DNA of 64,000 bases from Balneolales bacterium (GTDB taxonomy: Bacteria > Bacteroidota > Rhodothermia > Balneolales > HLUCCA01): assembly GCA_041749075.1 (NCBI GenBank), contig JBGTBY010000031.1:148342-212341 (forward strand). Reading direction: 5' to 3'. Each line of letters starts with the position of its first letter. The first letter of the stretch is position 1. Below are positions 8,856-63,948 of the stretch, piece by piece. The position numbers were made by a program, and so were the translations under genes. The notes under the pieces were generated by a model. It was not told the origin of the DNA. It worked only from the letters and a program-made list of their open reading frames with translations, and searched no databases.

Positions 8856-9030
8856 TGATGCGGCGGTTCATGAGTCGGTTGTAATGCTGATATTCGCTGA
8901 AACGCGCGGTGAACCGCATTTCTTTGTCCTCTTTCACAGCCACCACATCCACTTTTGTGGCGATATCCGGGTTTTCGGTGATGGTGACCTGAATCTCACC
9001 AAGTTTATACGATTCAATAAGTTTGCTCAT
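8836..9030 (-). CDS. Small hypothetical protein, translationally coupled between the AraC-family gene and crcB
   Basis: 64-aa ORF. Its ATG overlaps the upstream stop (ATGA) and its 3' end overlaps the crcB start by 20 nt. No family recognised. Confidence 0.4.
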   Translation of the reverse strand: MSKLIESYKLGEIQVTITENPDIATKVDVVAVKEDKEMRFTARFSEYQHYNRLMNRRISEHFKS

Positions 9031-9902
9031 ACGGCTTGACGGAACTCGGTGGGCGTGGAGCCGGTTATTTTGCGAAATGTGCGATTGAAATGGGTGACCG
9101 AATTGAATCCCACTTCATACGCCACTTGCGAAATCGATAAGCCGGTAGACGACATCAGTTGCTTCGCTTTTTCGATGCGTAATCGGTTCACATATTCAGA
9201 GAAGTTCATACCCGTCGCTTTCTTGAACATCCTGCAAAAATGGGCCGCGCTCATGTTCGCGACGTTCGCCACTTTATCGAGATTCAACTCCTGATTGAGA
9301 TTGGATGTGATGAACTCACGACTTTTTTTGATGCCATCGGGCTCCAGATGATCGGGCGTGACCGACAGCTTTTCAGCCAAAGTCGAAATGTGCTTCGCGA
9401 AAATCTCCAAGAGTCGGACGACCGCCTCGTATTGCTTCGGCGTGAGCAGTTGGCTTGAGTTCAGCAGATCGTGAACCTCGTCTGGATCGGTTTTGAAGCC
9501 CCAATCCAACACTTGTTTCGTGGTCTGTGATAACTTTTCCGCTGTGGCCGCTTCAAGCAAGACTTCACCCGTTTGCAGATATCCGATCACCTTGTTGTGC
9601 AACTTCACGGGCACGGCCGAGACATGAATGCCTGCGAAACAAGTATGATGCAGGGTTTCATTGTCACCTGGCACATGCACGCCATTCACTTGCACGCAGG
9701 TTCGGCACGCTTCATTGTGCTCGCGCATGAAATGGCAAAACGGATTTTCGGTGCCTTGGTCGCGATGGATCGGCTCGGATGATGCAGGATCGCGAAATAT
9801 CAGCGGAAGATGCGTCACTTCCTTGAATGCCTGTTCATATTCCAGATAGAGATCGGAATGGGAAAGGTCGTCGAGCAGTTTTTGAATCGCGTGTTGGTCC
9901 AT
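9027..9902 (-). CDS. AraC-family transcriptional regulator with PocR-like sensory domain
   Basis: N-terminal Cys/His-rich PocR-like region (FCHFMREHNEACRTC). C-terminal double HTH (HFCRMFKKATGMNFSEYVNRLRIEKAKQLM...THFNRTFRKITGSTPTEFR). Confidence 0.85.
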   Translation of the reverse strand: MDQHAIQKLLDDLSHSDLYLEYEQAFKEVTHLPLIFRDPASSEPIHRDQGTENPFCHFMREHNEACRTCVQVNGVHVPGDNETLHHTCFAGIHVSAVPVKLHNKVIGYLQTGEVLLEAATAEKLSQTTKQVLDWGFKTDPDEVHDLLNSSQLLTPKQYEAVVRLLEIFAKHISTLAEKLSVTPDHLEPDGIKKSREFITSNLNQELNLDKVANVANMSAAHFCRMFKKATGMNFSEYVNRLRIEKAKQLMSSTGLSISQVAYEVGFNSVTHFNRTFRKITGSTPTEFRQAV

Positions 9903-9934
9903 GGATGAAGCTTGACACGTAATTTAGGGATAAT

Positions 9935-10105
9935 GGAGAACAAGTAAGAACAAGTACTCAGGTACTCAAGAAGAACAAGTGCTCAAGGAAGACAAGTACT
10001 CAAGGAAGACAAGTACCCACGGAAAGCAGAAGTATAACCCCCCTTGAGTACATGAGTACTTGTATCCCCTTGTTCTTCTTGAGTACCTGTTCTTACTTGT
10101 TCTCC
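9935..10105. repeat. Long imperfect hairpin built from short words (GAACAAG, GTACTCAAG)
   Basis: 9935-9952 pairs with 10088-10105 and 9960-9979 pairs with 10069-10088. An inner stem pairs caagtactcaagg with ccttgagtac..ttg. The 3' arm overlaps the last codons (MENK*) of the four-helix-bundle gene. Confidence 0.7.
9999..10060 (+). repeat. 62-bp perfect direct repeat, copy 1 (flanks the four-helix-bundle gene)
   Basis: ctcaaggaagacaagtacccacggaaagcagaagtataaccccccttgagtacatgagtact is identical to 10534-10595 (compared base by base). Confidence 0.9.
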
Positions 10106-10443
10106 ATACTTCGCACCAGCTTATAAATGAGTATGCAGATGAAATTCGCTTTCTCGATGAGTATATCTGATTGGTTAGATGGAATTAGTTGATGGGTTTT
10201 TGCTAACTCGGCCTGAATTTTGAATTCGCCAGCCGAGCCGCGTGCATACCGAAGAAATCGAATGAAATCTCCTTGAGTCATTCGATGATATCCTTCCGCA
10301 ATATTCGATGGCACCGATAAGCTCGATCGTACCATTTGATCCCTAAATGCACGATCACTCATCTTCAACAGTATCGGATAAGCCAATTCATTCAGCTCCC
10401 GTGCTTGTCGAAAGGCTTCGATGTCTTCTAGTTTGTGGAACAT
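10093..10443 (-). CDS. Four-helix-bundle protein (23S rRNA intervening-sequence protein / Avd-like family)
   Basis: 116 aa. Contains QMVRSSLSVPSNIAEGYHR...FLRYARGSAGEF, typical of the family. Confidence 0.85.
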   Translation of the reverse strand: MFHKLEDIEAFRQARELNELAYPILLKMSDRAFRDQMVRSSLSVPSNIAEGYHRMTQGDFIRFLRYARGSAGEFKIQAELAKTHQLIPSNQSDILIEKANFICILIYKLVRSMENK

Positions 10444-10533
10444 AATAATCAGGTACTCAGGTACTCATGGAAGAACAAGTAAGAACAAGTAAGAACAAGT
10501 ACTCAAGAAATCAAGTGCTCAAGGAATCAAGTG

Positions 10534-10595
10534 CTCAAGGAAGACAAGTACCCACGGAAAGCAGAAGTATAACCCCCCTTGAGTACATGAGTACT
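10534..10595 (+). repeat. 62-bp perfect direct repeat, copy 2
   Basis: Identical to 9999-10060. Preceded by 16-17-nt tandem words (tcaagtgctcaaggaa x2). The terminal cttgagtacttg pairs with caagtactcaag at about 10495. Confidence 0.9.
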
Positions 10596-10614
10596 CGTAT
10601 ATCTTGAGTACTTG

Positions 10615-12174
10615 TCACCCCAACCACCCCTCCCGATCCAGATTCCGATATTGGATGGCTTCGGCCAGGTGATGCGTGCGGATCTCCTCACTTCCGTCCA
10701 GATCGGCGATGGTGCGGGACACCTTCAGGATGCGGTCGTACGCACGGGCGCTGAGACCGAGCATGGTCAGCGCTTTTTTCAAGAGCGCGGTTCCGGTATC
10801 ATCGATCTTGCACAATTTCCGGACCAGCTTCGAGTGCATCTGCGCGTTGTTGTAAATCCCTTTCATGCCCATGAAGCGATGCAGTTGGCGCTCACGAGCC
10901 AAAATCACACGTTGTCTGATATGCAACGACGTTTCGCCTTCATGGCGGGATGTGAGATCATCGAAGTGCAATTTCGGAACTTCGATATGGAGGTCGATCC
11001 GATCCAGCAAGGGTCCGCTGATCTTGTTCAAGTATCGTTGCATCGCCATTTGCTGTGAGCCCGAGGCCGCGCCCGGATCATACCAATCTCCGCTGGGCGA
11101 CGGATTCATGCTCGCAACCAACATCACCCGCGACGGATATTTCACGCTCATCTTGGCGCGGGAGATCGAGACAAATCCATCTTCCAATGGCTGGCGCATC
11201 ACTTCCAGAGCGCTGCGTTTGAACTCGGGCAACTCGTCAAGAAATAACACTCCGTTGTGGGCCAATGACATTTCGCCAGGCATGGGCGTGCTCCCGCCTC
11301 CGACCAAAGCCACATCCGAAATGGTGTGATGCGGCGCACGAAATGGACGCGTCGACACCAACCCACGCTCCTTATGCAGCATTCCGGTGACAGAATGAAT
11401 CTTCGTGGCCTCAAGCGCTTCCTCGGTGCTGAGAGGAGGCAAGATGCCAGGCAAGCGCCGCGCCATCATGGTTTTCCCAGATCCGGGCGGACCCACAAGA
11501 ATGATATTATGTCCACCGGCTGCGGCCACTTCCAACGCCCGCTTCACATTTTCTTGTCCTTTCACATCCGAAAAATCGAATCCGGGATCCATCTGCGCCG
11601 GACCCAGAATATCCTTGATGTCGGTTTTGATCGGTTCGATCGTCATCAGCCCGTTCAACATGTCCACCACATCCTTCAACTTGGATACGGCCAGCACACG
11701 AATCCCATCCACCACACCGGCTTCCATGCCATTATCTATTGGAAGGATGATGCTGTCGAAGCCACGGTCGCGAGCCTCAACGGCGATCGGTAGCACACCT
11801 TTCACCGGACGCACCGTGCCATCCAGTGCCAATTCGCCTAATATCACGGTGTTGGCCAGTTCATCGAGCTTCACTTGGTTGGATGCGGCAAGTAACCCCA
11901 TCGCGATAGCCAGATCGAAGGCGCTTCCTTCTTTGGGGAGATCGGCCGGGGCGAGGTTAACGGTCACGCGGCCATAAGGAAAACTATAGCCTGAGTTTTT
12001 GAACGCCGCTTCGATGCGGCTGTACGACTCATGAATGGCTTTATCGGGGAGGCCGACGAGATTGTACTTGGGAAGTCCGAACGCGATGTTCGTTTCGACG
12101 TGAATGATATGCGCGTCAACGCCATAGGTCGACGCGCAGGTGATCTGACTGAGCATGGATTCTCCTCTGTTCAT
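10615..12174 (-). CDS. comM: YifB/ComM family Mg-chelatase-like AAA+ ATPase
   Basis: 519 aa. Lon-like N-domain, Walker A GPPGSGKTMMARRLPGILPPL, and C-terminal Mg-chelatase subunit ChlI-like region. Confidence 0.9.
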   Translation of the reverse strand: MNRGESMLSQITCASTYGVDAHIIHVETNIAFGLPKYNLVGLPDKAIHESYSRIEAAFKNSGYSFPYGRVTVNLAPADLPKEGSAFDLAIAMGLLAASNQVKLDELANTVILGELALDGTVRPVKGVLPIAVEARDRGFDSIILPIDNGMEAGVVDGIRVLAVSKLKDVVDMLNGLMTIEPIKTDIKDILGPAQMDPGFDFSDVKGQENVKRALEVAAAGGHNIILVGPPGSGKTMMARRLPGILPPLSTEEALEATKIHSVTGMLHKERGLVSTRPFRAPHHTISDVALVGGGSTPMPGEMSLAHNGVLFLDELPEFKRSALEVMRQPLEDGFVSISRAKMSVKYPSRVMLVASMNPSPSGDWYDPGAASGSQQMAMQRYLNKISGPLLDRIDLHIEVPKLHFDDLTSRHEGETSLHIRQRVILARERQLHRFMGMKGIYNNAQMHSKLVRKLCKIDDTGTALLKKALTMLGLSARAYDRILKVSRTIADLDGSEEIRTHHLAEAIQYRNLDREGWLG

Positions 12175-33065: not shown

Positions 33066-33665
33066 TTGACCACTAAGCAAGATTACCCGCTTCATCCGAC
33101 CGGATGGGGCGGGGTTTTATTTCTGTTGATGATCGGATGCCGTCCTGAACCCGCTCCGAATCCTCTAAGCTATCCTACGTACGCTTCGCCGGATTCATCC
33201 ACGGTAAACGTCGTCATCGAAATCCCAGCCGGTAGCAACGATAAGATCGAAATCAATAAAGTCTCTGGACTCTTCGAGATCGATCGCGTTCTCAACTTCC
33301 TTCCCTACCCGGTCAATTACGGGTTCATTCCATCCACATTGGGCGGCGATGGAGACGCCTTGGATGTGCTCGTGCTCTCGAAACGGCTTGAAACGGGAAC
33401 CCGGATTATAGCCATTCCAATTGCTACGTTAAGCCTGATCGACAAGGGTGAGATGGACGACAAAGTGCTTCTTATCCCCGTCGATTCCACCCTTCGCGTG
33501 GTGCCCTGCGAAACCTGGGAATGTCTCCAGTCCGATTATCCGGCCATTGTGGACATCTTGGAAACGTGGTTCACGACATACAAACCTCTGGGTGTGATGG
33601 TATCGGGCGGATGGATCGGCCCCGACTCCACTCGTCAGTTGATCCGGAACGCGAACGTCGACTGA
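33066..33665 (+). CDS. ppa: Inorganic diphosphatase (family I) with possible lipoprotein signal
   Basis: VNVVIEIPAGSNDKIE...YPVNYGFIPSTLGGDGDALDVLVL. The in-frame upstream part of ORF 32850..33665 lies inside the TBDR gene. A start at TTG 33066 would give MTTKQDYPLHPTGWGGVLFLLMIGC (lipobox-like). The only ATG gives MIGC. Start is uncertain. Confidence 0.75.
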   Translation: MTTKQDYPLHPTGWGGVLFLLMIGCRPEPAPNPLSYPTYASPDSSTVNVVIEIPAGSNDKIEINKVSGLFEIDRVLNFLPYPVNYGFIPSTLGGDGDALDVLVLSKRLETGTRIIAIPIATLSLIDKGEMDDKVLLIPVDSTLRVVPCETWECLQSDYPAIVDILETWFTTYKPLGVMVSGGWIGPDSTRQLIRNANVD

Positions 33666-58766: not shown

Positions 58767-59162
58767 ATGGGAAACACGAATCGCAAATGGCGTTTTGCCA
58801 GGGAACTTCGCAGAAACATGACGCCTCATGAAAGGCGGTTATGGCAACATCTGCGCAAAGGGCGGATAGAGGATTATCGCTTTCTACGACAATATGTGGT
58901 CTCTTTTGAGGAAAGAACCGACGGGGCTTGGTTCTTCATATTGGACTTTTACTGCCCGGAAGTCCGCCTCGGAATCGAATTGGATGGGAAATATCACCGC
59001 TTTCAGCTAGAGTATGATAATTGGCGAGATGCCCTCATCCGCTCGAAAAATATCCGAATACTTCGATTCGAGAATTCCGAGCTACTAAATCTGGAACACG
59101 TTATTTCTCAAATCTCTGCGTCATTAAATGAGCAGATCACCCCTCCTTGCGAGCCCGAGTGA
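58767..59162 (+). CDS. DUF559 (Vsr-like endonuclease fold) domain protein
   Basis: RELRRNMTPHERRLWQHLRKGRIEDYRFLRQY...DFYCPEVRLGIELDGKYH. Confidence 0.85.
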   Translation: MGNTNRKWRFARELRRNMTPHERRLWQHLRKGRIEDYRFLRQYVVSFEERTDGAWFFILDFYCPEVRLGIELDGKYHRFQLEYDNWRDALIRSKNIRILRFENSELLNLEHVISQISASLNEQITPPCEPE

Positions 59163-60465: not shown

Positions 60466-61026
60466 TTAAAGGTAAGGGATTTTTACCGCATCAAGAAGGC
60501 GGTCTAGGATGGGGATGCCGTTCGCGCGAAGCCAGTCCTTATCGGCGTTTGGTTCGTGCCGCGAGCGGATGAAGAACGACTTCATCCCCAATTCAACCGC
60601 AGGTGCCAGATCACTGATCTTGTCGCCGGCCATGTATGACTTGCTGAAATCGATATTGAAGCGCTCCGCCGCTTGAAGGAAAAGTCCTGTTTCCGGTTTC
60701 CTCTCCTTCAGCAGATTCGCATCCAAGCCCTCATGGAATTTGGGATGCCATGGCGCGATGTACCAAGCGTCGACCCAGGCTCCGTGTTTTTTCAGGTCCG
60801 CATCCACCCAGGCATGAAGATCGTCGACCTGCTGGCGCGTGAACATCCCGCGAGCGATTCCGCTCTGATTCGTGATCACGATCACCTTGAATCCGTTCGT
60901 GTTCATCCATTGAATGGCTTCGATGGCGCCGTCGCACCAGGTCCATTCTTCGATGGTGTGGACATAATCGGTGTCGTGGTTCAAAGTGCCGTCACGATCC
61001 AGGAAATAGGCGATTTCCAAACTCAT
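60466..61026 (-). CDS. gmhB: D,D-heptose 1,7-bisphosphate phosphatase (HAD-IIIA)
   Basis: FLDRDGTLN (DxDxT) and VITNQSGIARG. Confidence 0.85.
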   Translation of the reverse strand: MSLEIAYFLDRDGTLNHDTDYVHTIEEWTWCDGAIEAIQWMNTNGFKVIVITNQSGIARGMFTRQQVDDLHAWVDADLKKHGAWVDAWYIAPWHPKFHEGLDANLLKERKPETGLFLQAAERFNIDFSKSYMAGDKISDLAPAVELGMKSFFIRSRHEPNADKDWLRANGIPILDRLLDAVKIPYL

Positions 61027-61063
61027 TCTCCTTAATTTGATGTATGCACAAAATATTGGAAAT

Positions 61064-62104
61064 ATGTCAAATGTGATTATCCGGGCCAGGGCGCCCCTTC
61101 GACTTGGTTTGGCCGGTGGTGGAACGGACGTATCTCCATACTGTGATATTCATGGTGGATGCATTCTGAACACCACTCTGGATCAATATGCCTATGCCGT
61201 GATCAAGCAGACAGACGAGATGAAGGCAATGACATTCTCGGCTACGGACCAACAAGTGACCGTCACGATGTCTCAGGATGATGAGATATTGCTGGATGGG
61301 ACGTTGAATTTACATAAGGCGGTGTATCGTCACATGGTGAAACATCACAACAACGGGAATCCGATTCCGATGGAATTGAGCACCTTTTGTGATGCACCCA
61401 TTGGCTCAGGACTCGGCTCTTCTTCTACCTTGGTTGTAGCGATGATCCGTGCCTTTGTGGAACTGCTGAACTTACCGATGGACGATTATCATGTCGCCTC
61501 GTTGGCCTACAAAATCGAGCGTGAAGATTGCGGGTTGCAAGGCGGTCGACAAGACCAGTACTCCGCAACCTTCGGCGGCATCAATTTCATGGAATTCTAT
61601 GCGGACAATCGGGCGGTCGTGAATTCGCTTCGCGTCAAGAACTGGATCATCAATGAGCTTGTAGCGTCCTTAGTACTGTATTTCACGGGCGTTTCCAGAG
61701 AATCGGCAACCATCATATCGGATCAAAGCGAAAACCTTCGTTCGGGATCCATTCAAGCCATGGATGCGATGCATGGATTGAAACAGGAAGCGTTGACTAT
61801 GAAAGAATGTCTATTGAGAGGCGATTTTGATGGATTTGTGGAATCGATGAAAATCGGATGGGAGAACAAAAAGCGGTCGGCTAAAACCGTGTCCAATCCA
61901 CATATCGATGAGATTCATGATGCCGCCATAAAAGCCGGTGCACTGGCAGGAAAAGTCTCGGGTGCGGGAGGTGGTGGCTTCATGCTGTTTTTTGTGCCGA
62001 ATGAGCGTCGTATGGACGTAATCCGGACCTTGGAGCGATATCACGGACAAGTGCGGAATTGTCATTTCACCAAACATGGAGCCCAATCGTGGCAAATTCG
62101 ATGA
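61064..62104 (+). CDS. hddA: GHMP-family D-glycero-alpha-D-manno-heptose 7-phosphate kinase
   Basis: RAPLRLGLAGGGTDVSPYCDIHGGCILNTT and PIGSGLGSSSTLVVAMI. Start at 61037 or 61064. Confidence 0.8.
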   Translation: MSNVIIRARAPLRLGLAGGGTDVSPYCDIHGGCILNTTLDQYAYAVIKQTDEMKAMTFSATDQQVTVTMSQDDEILLDGTLNLHKAVYRHMVKHHNNGNPIPMELSTFCDAPIGSGLGSSSTLVVAMIRAFVELLNLPMDDYHVASLAYKIEREDCGLQGGRQDQYSATFGGINFMEFYADNRAVVNSLRVKNWIINELVASLVLYFTGVSRESATIISDQSENLRSGSIQAMDAMHGLKQEALTMKECLLRGDFDGFVESMKIGWENKKRSAKTVSNPHIDEIHDAAIKAGALAGKVSGAGGGGFMLFFVPNERRMDVIRTLERYHGQVRNCHFTKHGAQSWQIR

Positions 62105-62685
62105 CGTACAACAGTCGGGATGAATTGAAGAAATCCGTGAATGTGATTCAATCCATTCTGGCGGATGAAGCCTTGATCACTCGTATCGATGCCGCCGCGG
62201 AAGCAACCATACAATCATTGAACAATGGTGGCAAGGTTCTATTGGCAGGAAATGGCGGAAGTGCGGCCGATGCGCAACACATCGCTGGTGAATTGGTGAG
62301 CCGATTCCTGTTTGATCGCCCCGGATTACCTGCGATCGCATTGACCACCGATACCTCCATCCTCACCGCCATTGGAAACGATTATGGGTATGAGCGCTTG
62401 TTCGCCCGTCAGATCCAAGCCTTAGGTCGCGAAGGGGATGTGTTCATCGCGTATTCCACATCCGGCTCATCACCCAATATCTTGGCAGCGCTCGATGAAG
62501 CCCGATCCAGAGGCATCCTCACTATCGGATTAACCGGAAACCGGCAAAGCCCGATGCGCGATCGTTGCGATATCCTGTTGGATGTGCCCTCATCCGAAAC
62601 CCCCAAAATTCAAGAAGGACATCTTGTGATTGGTCATATCCTCTGTGGTTTGGTAGAGCAGTCCATTTTTGGAAAGGATGCCTGA
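62101..62685 (+). CDS. gmhA: Phosphoheptose isomerase (SIS domain)
   Basis: Start moved to MTYNSRDELKK, which overlaps the hddA stop. GNGGSAADAQHIAGELV and AYSTSGSSPNI. Confidence 0.9.
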   Translation: MTYNSRDELKKSVNVIQSILADEALITRIDAAAEATIQSLNNGGKVLLAGNGGSAADAQHIAGELVSRFLFDRPGLPAIALTTDTSILTAIGNDYGYERLFARQIQALGREGDVFIAYSTSGSSPNILAALDEARSRGILTIGLTGNRQSPMRDRCDILLDVPSSETPKIQEGHLVIGHILCGLVEQSIFGKDA

Positions 62686-63377
62686 TGGAAGCCATCGTGC
62701 TGGCCGGTGGATTCGGAACTCGCTTGCGCTCGGTTGTATCGGATGTTCCGAAACCGATGGCTCCTGTAGCTGGTCGCCCATTTCTTGAAATCCTACTTCA
62801 AACTCTCGCTTCTAAGGGTGTCCATCGCACCGTATTGTCGCTAGGATATCTATCAGAAGTGATTTCCAATCATTTCGGGACAGAATTCAGTGGCATGACG
62901 ATCGATTATGTGGTTGAATCATCACCTTTAGGTACGGGCGGCGCTATCCGCCTGGCCATGGATGCGTGCGAACAAGATGCCGTGTTCGCATTCAATGGAG
63001 ATACTTTTTTGGATGTGGATTTGGCGGATGTGTATTCCAAATGGCGCGCCACGGGTTTACCTGTCGTCGTCGCGAAAAACGTACCCGACACAGCACGTTA
63101 TGGCGGGATTGAGATGACCGATGGATTGTTATCGAGATTCATCGAAAAAGGTCGAACCGGACCCGGCCTGATCAATGTCGGTTGCTATATGCTTGGTCGA
63201 CACCAACTCGATCATTTTCCAATCGGAACTCCATTTTCCATCGAATTGGATTTTCTGACACCTGAATCCGCAAAGTCTAAAGTCGCGGTTGCGGTCACAG
63301 ACGGATTGTTCATCGATATCGGCGTGCCAGAAGATTATGCCTTAGCACAAACCCTGCTCGCAAATAAAGGGAGTTGA
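62685..63377 (+). CDS. hddC: D-glycero-alpha-D-manno-heptose 1-phosphate guanylyltransferase
   Basis: Start moved to MEAIVLAGGFGTRLRSVVSDVPKPMAPVAGRPFLE (TGATG junction with gmhA). Confidence 0.8.
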   Translation: MEAIVLAGGFGTRLRSVVSDVPKPMAPVAGRPFLEILLQTLASKGVHRTVLSLGYLSEVISNHFGTEFSGMTIDYVVESSPLGTGGAIRLAMDACEQDAVFAFNGDTFLDVDLADVYSKWRATGLPVVVAKNVPDTARYGGIEMTDGLLSRFIEKGRTGPGLINVGCYMLGRHQLDHFPIGTPFSIELDFLTPESAKSKVAVAVTDGLFIDIGVPEDYALAQTLLANKGS

Positions 63378-63393
63378 CGCCATCTTTGCTATC

Positions 63394-63948
63394 TTGTGCA
63401 CGAACATGGCTTCCAAGCAACTCCTCCTCACCGCTTCCGACCTCGACCGTACGTTCCGGCGGTTCGCCCACCAATTCATCGAGCCTTACGACGATCTTTC
63501 CCGCTTCGCAATCATCGGCATGCAGACCCGCGGCGTTCATATCGCCAAACGCGTTCAACATTACATCAAAGAATCGATCGGTCACGATGTACCCCTTGGC
63601 GTACTGGATGTGACCTTTTATCGCGATGACTTCCGCACGAAAATGAAGATGCCCGATGTGAAAGTCACCGAAATCCCATTTGATCTGTTCGGGATGGATG
63701 TGGTTCTGGTCGATGATGTTCTGTATACCGGGCGCACGGTTCGTGCCGCGCTCGATGCCATGATGAGCTTCGGGCGTCCCCGATCCATCCGGTTCTGCTG
63801 TCTGGTCGACCGCGGACACCGCGAGCTTCCCATTTCCGCCGATGTGGTCGGCGTCACGGTTCCCACACATCAATCCGAAGAAGTCCGAGTTTATTTGAAT
63901 GAATTGGATGGTGAAGATGCGGTCTACATCGTTGAACGAAATGACTAA
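63394..63948 (+). CDS. pyrR: Bifunctional pyr operon regulator / uracil phosphoribosyltransferase PyrR
   Basis: VVLVDDVLYTGRTVRAALDA (PRPP motif) and FYRDD. The start may be MASKQ at 63406. Confidence 0.9.
   Translation: MCTNMASKQLLLTASDLDRTFRRFAHQFIEPYDDLSRFAIIGMQTRGVHIAKRVQHYIKESIGHDVPLGVLDVTFYRDDFRTKMKMPDVKVTEIPFDLFGMDVVLVDDVLYTGRTVRAALDAMMSFGRPRSIRFCCLVDRGHRELPISADVVGVTVPTHQSEEVRVYLNELDGEDAVYIVERND

What the first reader, a model, noticed from the sequence alone, without database searches (positions are those of the whole stretch)
9903..10614. Avd/23S-IVS-like four-helix-bundle gene nested in word-repeat hairpins and flanked by 62-bp perfect direct repeats
The whole spacer between the AraC-family gene start (9902) and the comM stop (10615) is one structured unit. 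The upstream flank is a ~170-nt extended hairpin made of the words GAACAAG, GTACTCAAG and CAAGTAC, and its 3' arm encodes the last residues of the ORF. The downstream flank repeats the same words (16-17-nt tandem units). Both flanks contain an identical 62-bp segment (9999-10060 = 10534-10595) 535 bp apart. The family was first described inside 23S rRNA intervening sequences, which are excised stem-loops, and it includes DGR Avd. Here there is no rRNA and no RT. The architecture suggests a self-contained, possibly mobile or RNA-processed hairpin cassette.
Basis: partly seen in the sequence, partly recalled or inferred. Interest (0 to 1): 0.6.

Follow-up and report, generated by a model that had tools for sequence, protein, structure and literature searches.

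The report
Hairpin-bounded four-helix-bundle gene cassette
A small, well-conserved gene of unknown function sits between two copies of a long DNA hairpin built from short repeated words, and close relatives carry the whole package, only one hairpin, or nothing at exactly this spot, so it is a discrete add-on module like the inserts known from ribosomal RNA genes but living between ordinary genes.

Summary
Window 9933-10614 is a 682-bp insert lying exactly between the comM stop codon and a 30-nt ancestral leader of the PocR/AraC gene.

- **Contents:** a 116-aa PF05635/TIGR02436 four-helix-bundle gene (minus strand) between two direct copies of one word hairpin. The copies share about 130 nt at 92%, with a 62-nt exact core.
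- **Paralogs:** eight of the nine PF05635 hits in the genome have inverted word arrays, each with its own word. The ninth lies at a contig end and is unclear. The background is 14 of 700 genes.
- **Relatives:** four other assemblies carry the orthologous cassette at the same site (dN/dS 0.04-0.08; dS about the same as the flanks). Two relatives have a clean empty site. One has a single hairpin that looks like a recombinant of the two copies.
- **DNA-level events:** I infer gene conversion between the two hairpins here and a flipped hairpin in one relative. Cassette arms in general show no G·U excess.
- **Genome context:** it holds several hundred gene-less word hairpins.

Verdict: this is a non-rRNA counterpart of ORF-bearing 23S rRNA intervening sequences, gained and lost as a unit. 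I found no such description in the papers I searched. How it moves and what the protein does remain unknown.

The parts
9933..10614 (-). Whole insert (682 bp): hairpin U, four-helix-bundle gene, hairpin D. It lies between the comM stop codon and the ancestral AraC leader.
   Evidence: Relatives L018 and L011 join the comM stop directly to the conserved (A/T)(A/T)TCCCTAAATT leader, with spacers of 31 and 30 nt. Orthologous filled loci L119-L122 have the same boundaries.
10093..10443 (-). Four-helix-bundle protein gene (116 aa; PF05635 / TIGR02436; 23S rRNA IVS protein / Avd superfamily).
   Evidence: Pfam E 1.3e-22. TIGR02436 82 bits. AlphaFold model with four helices, pLDDT 97. Best fold matches are 2GSC (TM 0.88-0.91), then 2RLD, then Avd 4DWL. 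dN/dS 0.04-0.08 among five orthologs.
9933..10107 (-). Hairpin D, 3' of the gene on the coding strand. It is a complete 175-nt word hairpin whose 5' arm contains the last four codons and the stop codon.
   Evidence: Inverted repeats I2 (28 nt, 96%) and I6 (21 nt, 100%). Fold -93.4 kcal/mol, z -10.7.
10493..10616 (-). Hairpin U, 5' of the gene. Its stem starts inside the comM stop codon, and its 5' arm is shorter than its 3' arm.
   Evidence: Fold -52.4 kcal/mol, z -3.3. It is kept as a separate hairpin in the fold of the whole 693-nt cassette.
10444..10492 (-). Tail of the U 3' arm running to 9 nt before the ATG. Together with 10493-10509 it is complementary to the outer 5' arm of hairpin D across the gene (10482-10509 vs 10076-10103). 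The promoter-like leader seen in canonical cassettes is absent here.
   Evidence: Inverted repeat I3, 28 nt, 96%. Leader comparison. [quoted passage not shown]
9937..10065 (.). Direct-repeat copy 1 (loop plus inner arms of hairpin D). The exact core is 9999-10060.
10472..10600 (.). Direct-repeat copy 2 (loop plus inner arms of hairpin U). The exact core is 10534-10595, 535 bp from copy 1.
   Evidence: Own U vs own D is 124/136 identical, but own U vs the orthologous U of L119 is only 116/148.
9903..9932 (-). Ancestral 30-nt spacer (leader of the PocR/AraC gene). It is not part of the cassette.
   Evidence: Conserved in empty-site relatives L018 and L011 and in L010.

Best explanation
Window 9933-10614 is a hairpin-bounded four-helix-bundle (4HB) gene cassette. 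It is the counterpart, outside rRNA, of the ORF-bearing intervening sequences of 23S rRNA.

**Shown**
- A small gene under strong purifying selection sits between two direct copies of one long hairpin made of short tandem words.
- It is inserted exactly at the junction between the comM stop codon and the leader of the next gene.
- In relatives the package is present or absent as one block at this junction.
- In my sample from this bacterial order, enclosure by inverted word arrays, with a different word at each locus, is the usual packaging of this gene family.

**Inferred from phylogeny and sequence comparison**
- The package entered this site once, before the split of the two sampled clades.
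- It was then inherited vertically and removed cleanly at least twice.
- It collapsed once to a single hairpin by recombination between the two hairpin copies.
- The 62-bp perfect repeat is the footprint of recent gene conversion between the two copies.
- The arms are kept complementary by DNA-level processes: slippage within arrays, copying between arms, and flips. They are not kept by RNA-level compensatory selection.

**Inferred only**
- This copy lacks the internal promoter-like leader of canonical cassettes, so it is probably transcribed by read-through from comM.
- The two hairpins may then act as RNA end or processing structures that separate the three cistrons. An RNase III gene is present.
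- The biochemical role of the protein, a pentameric nucleic-acid-associated fold by homology, is unknown.
For: **Anatomy.**

**Family membership and fold.**

**Paralog test**
- The genome has nine PF05635 hits. Eight are flanked by word arrays upstream and their reverse complement downstream, each locus with its own word. The ninth lies at a contig end and shows arrays on one side only.
- The eight assessable genes have arm scores of 33-85. Only 14 of 700 random genes reach 33.
- 25 of 38 loci sampled across the order reach the same score.
- Genomes with few gene-less arrays (3-5 per 100 kb) still have armed 4HB genes.

**Allelic series at the orthologous junction**
- Filled: own genome, L119 (95% aa), and L120/L121/L122 (85% aa). 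All show hairpin-gene-hairpin.
- Empty: L018 (31-nt spacer) and L011 (30 nt).
- Single hairpin: L010.

**Age and inheritance**
- Filled loci occur in both clades of the comM and AraC trees, and the outgroups are empty.
- 4HB dS is 0.32 to L119 and 1.8-2.5 to clade B. This is about the same as the flanking genes: comM 0.38; AraC 0.78 and 1.31.

**Origin of the L010 hairpin.** It carries the left end of U, a D-type loop and the right end of D. It is 67/70 identical to the D hairpin of L122.

**DNA-level events**
- Gene conversion: own U and D share derived loop changes and are 91% alike, against 78% for orthologous U copies.
- Flip: the loop of L119 hairpin D is in reverse orientation, and its strand bias is reversed with it.
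- No RNA-strand bias in general: G·T 37 vs A·C 28 vs other mismatches 73 in cassette arms. The sense strand is more stable in 71 of 140 gene-less hairpin spacers.

**Dynamics at other sites in the genus.** These include an inverted cassette (L171), occupants only 46-59% identical at five shared sites, and a gene-less hairpin in this genome where two congeners carry a cassette.
Against: - No movement, circular form, target-site duplication or recombinase was observed.
- The order of branching inside each clade is unresolved (support 86-92%, and the comM and AraC trees disagree). The count of losses against gains therefore rests on parsimony plus the dS argument.
- All sequences are metagenome assemblies. 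A 62-nt exact repeat can confuse short-read assemblers. However, four independent assemblies with non-identical hairpin copies show the same layout.
- The genome carries several hundred gene-less word hairpins, including at least 12 built from this locus's words. Some association of any small gene with such hairpins is therefore expected, measured at 2%.
- At this locus the sense strand folds better than the antisense in 9 of 10 hairpins, with G·U 58 vs 25. That would fit an RNA role and tempers the 'DNA-level only' reading. These hairpins all descend from one ancestor, and much of the bias sits in conserved apical G·U pairs.
- Expression and RNA processing are untested.
Confidence: 0.7

Rival explanations
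1. The flanks are ordinary resident intergenic word hairpins (terminator-like or REP-like elements) belonging to the neighbouring genes. The 4HB gene merely sits between two of them, and there is no cassette.
For: - The genome has about 540 merged arrays of period 6-10. One search gives 1790 raw TRF rows.
- This locus's words fill at least 12 other spacers as gene-less hairpins.
- Each flank folds as its own hairpin, U right after the comM stop and D right after the 4HB stop.
- L010 has a hairpin after comM without any 4HB gene.
- Array edges lie within -10 to +5 nt of a stop codon in 89 of 421 cases.
Against: - Both hairpins vanish together with the gene in L018 and L011.
- In the seven other assessable paralogs of this genome the arms pair across the gene.
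- Enclosure is 8 of 8 for 4HB genes against 14 of 700 for other genes. It holds in genomes that have few gene-less arrays.
- No U-tract follows either hairpin, and the stems are far longer than intrinsic terminators.
- Arrays also occur in divergent spacers, 40 of 351 against 56 of 219 convergent.
Confidence: 0.12
2. The cassette works mainly at the RNA level, as rRNA intervening sequences do. In the comM-4HB-AraC read-through transcript the long stems are cut by RNase III. This releases the 4HB mRNA and leaves the host messages intact. Selection on that RNA structure maintains the arms.
For: - The closest known system works this way: Coxiella IVS has a 28-bp stem cut by RNase III and heptamer repeats before the S23p ORF (PMC4990558).
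- The genome encodes RNase III.
- All three genes are co-oriented, and this cassette has no internal promoter-like leader.
- At this locus 9 of 10 hairpins are more stable on the sense strand, with G·U 58 vs 25, and apical G·U pairs are conserved.
Against: - Across 29 armed cassettes there is no G·U excess (37 vs 28), and transversion mismatches dominate (73).
- Gene-less hairpins show no strand bias.
- Canonical cassettes carry a promoter-like leader inside the 5' arm, so their own mRNA would lack that arm.
- The sense bias here is inherited from one ancestral hairpin and flips with the flipped copy.
- No RNA data could be obtained.
Confidence: 0.25
3. It is an autonomous mobile element in which the 4HB protein is the mobility or maintenance factor for its own word arrays, a partnership like RAYT with its REPINs.
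For: - The gene-array association is strong.
- Related proteins carry related words.
- Genomes without PF05635 have the fewest arrays: 5 in 271 kb against 33 in 400 kb.
- Sites are reused by different cassettes.
Against: - The fold is a small helical bundle with no catalytic motif known to me.
- There is no target duplication.
- The nearest paralog in the genome is only 48% identical and has different arms.
- The cassette was inherited vertically here.
- Co-divergence of protein and word is what co-inheritance alone predicts.
- Array density does not scale with 4HB gene number: 11-18 genes go with only 3-5 arrays per 100 kb in one family.
- The genome's single Y1 transposase has its own, different REP palindromes.
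Confidence: 0.1
4. It is a remnant of a diversity-generating retroelement: an Avd gene with template and variable repeats.
For: - The protein is in the Avd superfamily, with fold match to 4DWL at TM 0.75-0.84.
- Two direct repeats flank the gene.
Against: - No reverse transcriptase is adjacent. The genome's only RT-like ORF is on another contig and scores below the Pfam cut-off.
- Differences between the two repeats are not adenine-specific.
- The repeats are hairpins in non-coding DNA, not part of a target gene.
Confidence: 0.02

Closest known systems
ORF-bearing intervening sequences of 23S rRNA (Leptospira, Coxiella burnetii S23p IVS; Warrier et al. 2016, PMC4990558)
   Same: - The same protein family is encoded inside a long stem formed by complementary termini.
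- Tandem heptamers lie next to the ORF in Coxiella.
- Distribution among relatives is sporadic.
- The element is proposed to be selfish or mobile, with no known mechanism.
   Different: - This one is not in rRNA. It lies between two protein-coding genes, starting at a stop codon.
- The arms are arrays of 7-10-nt words and are much longer.
- There are two complete hairpins flanking the gene rather than one enclosing stem.
- RNase III excision is shown for IVS and untested here.
Heptamer tandem repeats in convergent inverted pairs (GGGAATC in Xanthomonas, GGGGATT in Nostoc; Rehm et al. 2015, PMC4692102) and TAACTGA repeats of Beggiatoaceae (PMC4679880)
   Same: - They are genome-wide intergenic arrays of 7-nt units, often paired in inverted orientation so that they can form stem-loops.
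- This genome also has long GATTCCC arrays.
   Different: - Neither paper mentions the four-helix-bundle or 23S IVS protein family (zero occurrences).
- Here many different words coexist in one genome, and a specific gene family sits inside the pairs.
DGR accessory protein Avd (PDB 4DWL; DGR ribonucleoprotein structures 8UB7 and related)
   Same: The protein has the same fold and superfamily (PMC10053308).
   Different: There is no reverse transcriptase, no template/variable repeat pair, and no adenine-specific differences.
REP / REPIN elements with their RAYT transposase
   Same: They are short palindromic intergenic repeats dispersed through a genome and associated with a small dedicated gene.
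   Different: - The genome's single Y1_Tnp gene is flanked by its own classical REPs (CCGAGGGCT..AGCCCTCGG), which are unrelated to the word arrays.
- 4HB genes are multi-copy, and each has different arms.
Integron gene cassettes with attC hairpin sites
   Same: - A single small gene is associated with an imperfect inverted repeat that is conserved in structure rather than sequence.
- Cassettes are exchanged at fixed sites.
- A circular gene-plus-hairpin intermediate would explain the hairpin-gene-hairpin layout.
   Different: - There is no integrase, attI or cassette array nearby; the neighbours are comM and a PocR/AraC regulator.
- The arms are tandem word arrays.
- No circular form was observed.

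Membership tests
PF05635 / TIGR02436 four-helix-bundle protein (23S rRNA IVS protein, S23p) | Profile match above the curated cut-off | tested here: met
   PF05635 80.4 bits against 33.8. TIGR02436 82 bits against 24.
PF05635 / TIGR02436 four-helix-bundle protein (23S rRNA IVS protein, S23p) | Single domain of about 110-130 aa folding as a four-helix bundle like 2GSC and 2RLD | tested here: met
   116 aa. The model has four helices at pLDDT 97. TM 0.88-0.91 to 2GSC and 0.67-0.84 to 2RLD.
PF05635 / TIGR02436 four-helix-bundle protein (23S rRNA IVS protein, S23p) | Conserved S-x-x-S-N-I-A-E-G motif | tested here: met
   SVPSNIAEG at residues 43-51. These columns are invariant across 25 homologs.
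PF05635 / TIGR02436 four-helix-bundle protein (23S rRNA IVS protein, S23p) | Homopentameric assembly | not tested
   Only a monomer was modelled. The pentamer is known from 2GSC (PMC4990558).
ORF-bearing 23S rRNA intervening sequence | Inserted in a 23S rRNA helix (25 or 45) | tested here: not met
   No Rfam family, rRNA included, reaches gathering score in the 64-kb window. The flanks are comM and a PocR/AraC gene.
ORF-bearing 23S rRNA intervening sequence | ORF of the S23p family bounded by complementary sequences that form a stable stem | tested here: met
   Inverted repeat 10482-10509 / 10076-10103 across the gene, 28 nt at 96%. Each flank also forms its own hairpin.
ORF-bearing 23S rRNA intervening sequence | Excised from the precursor RNA by RNase III | not testable with these tools
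An RNase III gene is present in the genome.
ORF-bearing 23S rRNA intervening sequence | Sporadic presence or absence among close relatives | tested here: met
   Filled, single-hairpin and empty alleles occur at one orthologous junction.
DGR (Avd with RT and TR/VR) | Adjacent reverse transcriptase | tested here: not met
   The neighbours are comM and an AraC-family gene. The only RT-like ORF is on contig C11 at 26-28 bits, below the cut-off.
DGR (Avd with RT and TR/VR) | Template/variable repeat pair differing at adenines | tested here: not met
   The mismatches between the two copies are of mixed types.
REP / REPIN with RAYT | The repeats match the palindromes that flank the genome's RAYT gene | tested here: not met
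   The Y1_Tnp gene at C12:71559-71897 is followed by four CCGAGGGCT..AGCCCTCGG palindromes, which are unrelated to the words here.
MITE / IS-derived element | Terminal inverted repeats with a target-site duplication and many near-identical copies | tested here: not met
   No duplication appears at the filled/empty junction. Apart from the two flanks, only one diverged copy (84%) of the hairpin core exists in the genome.
Intrinsic (Rho-independent) terminator | Short GC-rich stem followed by a U-tract | tested here: not met
   The consensus scan finds no minus-strand terminator in the flanks of the gene. The stems are 120-175 nt long with no T-run after them.

The most novel reading that the evidence does not exclude
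Word hairpins may be docking sites for a cassette-exchange system, with 4HB genes as its cargo or cofactor. A circular 'gene plus one hairpin' unit (535 bp here) would recombine with a resident gene-less hairpin to give hairpin-gene-hairpin, and the reverse reaction would leave a single hairpin. This would explain several observations:
- the two direct hairpin copies at this locus;
- the single hairpin in L010;
- gene-less hairpins at sites that carry cassettes in congeners;
- shared sites occupied by 4HB genes only 46-59% identical, in one case on the opposite strand, or nested inside older outer arms.

It would be an integron-like exchange system without a recognisable integrase, and the Avd-like pentamer would be the hairpin-binding factor.
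Probability: 0.15. Interest if true: 0.85.

Novelty: new variant of a known kind. Interest (0 to 1): 0.62.

Why it matters
The PF05635 family is very large and has no known function outside DGRs. Its founding members, the ORFs inside 23S rRNA intervening sequences, have been unexplained for some 30 years.

If the same gene-in-a-stem package routinely lives between ordinary genes, rRNA intervening sequences become one special case of a general cassette. That makes their origin testable.

This locus is a useful handle for three reasons:
- It offers a natural allelic series (filled, single hairpin, empty) at one junction.
- It has a conserved two-hairpin design.
- It shows footprints of deletion, gene conversion and inversion.

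It also links the long-noted but unexplained heptamer and octamer arrays of many bacteria to a specific gene family.

Tried and rejected
- **RNA-seq and DNA-read evidence.** I therefore could not test for processing sites, population variants or circular junctions.
- **Exact-protein look-up of the window's 4HB.** Nothing found. The homolog search did find the orthologs.
- **Metagenome scans.** An AraC-start 27-mer found nothing. A degenerate 4HB pattern gave 57 stretches, none of which encodes a homolog.
- **Rfam.** Nothing at gathering score in the window. Around eight cassettes there were only chance sub-threshold hits.
- **RNAduplex over 300-nt flanks.** It was too permissive and paired everything. 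I replaced it with an ungapped local stem score.
- **Regex for the cassette leader motif.** It was not specific: 9 hits against 8 in reversed sequence. I make no claim that gene-less hairpins contain leaders.
- **Stop-codon targeting of arrays.** Enrichment is only modest: 21% of array edges lie within -10 to +5 nt of a stop. I do not use it as evidence.
- **First literature search, with generic terms.** It returned only plastid and eukaryote papers.
- **Readings rejected.**
  - DGR remnant.
  - REP/RAYT.
  - MITE with target duplication.
  - Ordinary terminator.
- **L015.** The 2-kb gap between comM and the AraC gene is an ordinary gene on the other strand.
Full report
**1. What is in the sequence**

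The spacer between the PocR/AraC-family gene (9027-9902) and comM (10615-12174) holds one ORF, 10093-10443. All three genes are on the minus strand.

The ORF encodes 116 aa that match PF05635 (E 1.3e-22) and TIGR02436. An AlphaFold model built on 25 homologs has four helices at pLDDT 97. It superposes best on Xcc0516 (2GSC, TM about 0.9), then BT_0352 (2RLD), then the DGR protein Avd (4DWL).

The 62-bp repeat is exact at the stated coordinates. It is the core of a direct repeat of about 130 nt at 91.6% identity.

On the coding strand the layout reads:
- comM stop codon;
- hairpin U (10616-10493);
- a tail of U's 3' arm that runs to 9 nt before the ATG;
- the ORF;
- hairpin D (10107-9933), whose 5' arm includes the last four codons and the stop;
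- 30 nt of ordinary leader;
- the AraC gene's ATG.

Hairpin D folds at -93.4 kcal/mol (z -10.7) and U at -52.4 (z -3.3). The fold of the whole 693 nt keeps them as two separate hairpins.

The consensus scans find no sigma-70-type promoter and no terminator on the minus strand in the flanks of the gene. The window holds no Rfam family.

**2.

The genome (3.3 Mb, 38 contigs) has nine PF05635 hits. Eight have short tandem words upstream and the reverse-complement words downstream, with a different word at each locus. Examples are GGATGGTA, GTGAAAGY, GGAAATC, GTTAGTTG, GATGAAR, AATTTTAAAT and GGAAGTAGG. The ninth lies 240 bp from a contig end and shows arrays on one side only.

I scored enclosure with an ungapped stem score between 260-nt flanks. 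The eight assessable genes score 33-85. Only 14 of 700 random genes (2%) reach 33. Across the order, 25 of 38 sampled PF05635 loci reach that score.

The 3' arm usually begins within about 20 nt of the stop codon or overlaps it. The 5' arm usually ends 40-110 nt before the ATG. A conserved promoter-like leader fills that gap: AATCTGTGC-n6-TGTAAGAA, then about 20 nt, then CTCTATAGATATCACC. The cassette in this window lacks that leader.

**3. The flanks are not unique to these genes**

TRF finds about 540 merged arrays of period 6-10 in this genome. Most have no 4HB gene nearby.

The words of this locus (CAAGTACT, GAAGAACAAG) form gene-less hairpins that fill at least 12 other spacers. These often start at a stop codon.

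The 'ordinary hairpins of the neighbours' reading therefore had to be taken seriously. The specificity figures above argue against it. So does the finding that relatives with few gene-less arrays (3-5 per 100 kb) still have armed 4HB genes.

**4. Empty sites in relatives**

I searched for the AraC protein in one genome per species. Exact look-ups of the closest 4HB homologs followed. Together these gave nine informative copies of the comM-AraC junction.

| State | Loci | Detail |
|---|---|---|
| Filled | own, L119, L120, L121, L122 | L119 is 95% aa identical, from a Logan assembly. L120-L122 are 85%, from JGI contigs. All show hairpin-gene-hairpin with the same boundaries. |
| Empty | L018, L011 | The comM stop is followed directly by (A/T)(A/T)TCCCTAAATT. 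Spacers are 31 and 30 nt. |
| Single hairpin | L010 | A 70-nt hairpin of the same words and loop motif sits at the same point. |
| Empty (outgroups) | L012-L014, L016, L017 | Short unrelated spacers. |
| Unrelated gene | L015 | An ordinary gene on the other strand lies between comM and the AraC gene. |

- **Trees.** Both the comM and AraC trees give clade A (own, L119, L018) and clade B (L120-L122, L010, L011). Filled members occur in both clades.
- **Selection and age.** The 4HB gene is under strong purifying selection, with dN/dS 0.04-0.08. Its synonymous divergence is about the same as that of its neighbours. dS to L119 is 0.32, against 0.38 for comM and 0.78 for AraC. dS to L121 is 1.8, against 1.3 for AraC.
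- **History.** The simplest history is one old gain, clean loss in L018 and in L011, and collapse to one hairpin in L010. Branching inside the clades is poorly resolved, so the exact number of events is uncertain. At least three independent changes at one nucleotide junction are needed under any history.

**5. What the direct repeats are**

The two flanks are copies of one hairpin.
- **Gene conversion.** Own U and own D are 124/136 identical, whereas own U and the orthologous U of L119 are 116/148. Own U and D also share derived changes in the loop that no ortholog has: GGGGGGTTATAC and CCGTGGG, against GGGGAGTTATGC and CCTTGAG. One copy has evidently overwritten the other recently. That explains the 62-nt perfect core.
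- **Collapse in L010.** Its single hairpin has the left end of U, a D-type loop and the right end of D. It is 67/70 identical to hairpin D of L122. This is the product expected from recombination between the two direct copies.
- **Flip in L119.** In hairpin D of L119 the loop motif lies in reverse orientation, and the hairpin's strand bias is reversed with it. A flip between the inverted arms would do this.

**6. RNA level or DNA level?**

If the stems were maintained by selection on the transcript, mismatches should be mostly G·U on the sense strand.
- In 29 armed cassettes I count G·T 37, A·C 28 and other mismatches 73.
- In 140 tandem-gene spacers with arrays, the sense strand folds better in 71 and worse in 69.
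- Orthologous cassettes can differ in every unit of both arms while staying complementary. One example is GTGAAAGC in this genome and G002 against GTGGAAGT in G003.

Together this points to DNA-level renewal: slippage within arrays and copying between arms.

At this particular locus the sense strand is the more stable in 9 of 10 hairpins, with G·U 58 vs 25. These hairpins share one ancestor, and many of the G·U pairs sit in the conserved apical motif. I treat this as a hint only.

RNase III is encoded in the genome.

**7. Behaviour elsewhere in the genus**

I made an inventory of 30 PF05635 loci in four congeneric genomes. Most cassettes sit at conserved sites with related words. There are several exceptions.
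- **gmhB-pyrR site.** Two genomes carry one cassette (GTAGACC arms). A third carries a 46%-identical gene on the opposite strand with GTGGGAC arms. This genome has a three-gene heptose block there instead (window 61037-63377).
- **Other shared sites.** Four more sites have occupants only 48-59% identical.
- **Nested arms.** One occupant (L159) has new inner words inside older outer words.
- **Inversion.** One cassette (L171) is inverted relative to its flanks.
- **Gene-less hairpin.** This genome has only a hairpin at C20:~33,100, where two congeners have a cassette.
- **Remnant.** At C22:67,800-68,400 this genome has a tenth cassette whose ORF is broken by an unrelated hairpin repeat.

Genomes without any PF05635 gene have the fewest arrays: 5 in 271 kb, against 33 in 400 kb in genomes with 10-18 genes. 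Array number does not scale with gene number, and these lineages are few.

**8. Comparison with what is known**

- **23S rRNA intervening sequences.** The nearest described system is the ORF-bearing 23S rRNA intervening sequence. It has the same protein family, a stem formed by complementary ends, heptamers before the ORF in Coxiella, RNase III excision and a sporadic distribution (PMC4990558). The present element fails the defining feature of lying in rRNA.
- **Intergenic heptamer arrays.** Arrays in inverted pairs are described for Xanthomonas and Nostoc (PMC4692102) and for Beggiatoaceae (PMC4679880). Neither paper mentions this gene family.
- **DGR, REP/RAYT and MITE.** These readings fail explicit tests.
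- **Literature.** In the searchable literature I found no description of PF05635 genes packaged in inverted word arrays outside rRNA.
- **Earlier notes of this scan.** They report the same layout in many genomes, and the genome-wide hairpins in this genome. I used them as leads and re-tested what I cite.

**9. Verdict**

Movement has not been seen, and RNA processing has not been tested. Its two flanks are copies of one hairpin that recombine, convert and flip.

Noticed in passing
window 58767-59162 (+): A 131-aa DUF559-family endonuclease-like gene is enclosed by a 21-nt exact inverted repeat (ACCCACCCCCTGCCCCTCCCT). A paralog at C17:47419-47802 has a similar 23-nt repeat. This looks like a second kind of small gene packaged between inverted repeats that are not word arrays.
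   Followed up: partly
window 61037-63377 (+), between gmhB (60466-61026, -) and pyrR (63394-63948, +): A three-gene block (GHMP kinase, SIS-domain isomerase, nucleotidyl transferase; heptose-nucleotide synthesis by family names) fills the site. Three congeneric genomes carry 4HB cassettes there instead: two kinds, in opposite orientations, with proteins 46% identical.
   Followed up: partly
own genome C22:67800-68400 (outside the window): A tenth 4HB cassette, missed by the Pfam search. Arms, leader, the first 11 codons and the last 12 codons are kept. The middle of the ORF is replaced by a ~290-nt unrelated hairpin repeat (GGGTCCTTCG..CTCAGGATGACA / TGTCATCCTGAG..) that recurs elsewhere in the genome. 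The intact ortholog is L110.
   Followed up: partly
own genome C12:71300-71900 (outside the window): A single Y1_Tnp (RAYT-like) gene is followed by four classical REP palindromes (CCGAGGGCTGAAGCCCTCGG and CCGAGGGCTTTAGCCCTCGG). This REP system is separate from the word hairpins.
   Followed up: partly
own genome C20:~33080-33160 (outside the window): A gene-less word hairpin (GTTAGTGG/GTTTGTTG words) starts at the stop codon of a fur-like gene. Two congeners carry a 4HB cassette with GGTAATTGG arms at the same point.
   Followed up: partly
own genome C5:23145-23426 and C2:44218-44512: A 93-aa GIY-YIG-type small gene is flanked by CTTGTCATCCTGAG inverted repeats. At the second site, one spacer holds that repeat pair nested inside an outer word hairpin of this locus's words.
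   Followed up: no
own genome C11:43578-45251 (L174 1153-2826): A 557-aa ORF with a weak reverse-transcriptase match (26-28 bits, below the Pfam cut-off). It is the only RT-like sequence in the genome and is not next to any 4HB gene.
   Followed up: no
own genome C9:28800-28883, C12:30825-30929, C33:176919-176946: Long arrays of GATTCCC (= GGGAATC), the same heptamer reported as highly enriched in Xanthomonas.
   Followed up: no
window 10014-10045 and 10549-10580; L010, L119-L122: The hairpin tip carries a conserved motif, AAGGGGAGTTATGC-n6-TTTCCTT, with two G·U pairs kept in all orthologs. The arms around it drift by whole words. In this genome it occurs only at this locus, plus one diverged copy at C2:89758-89828.
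   Followed up: partly
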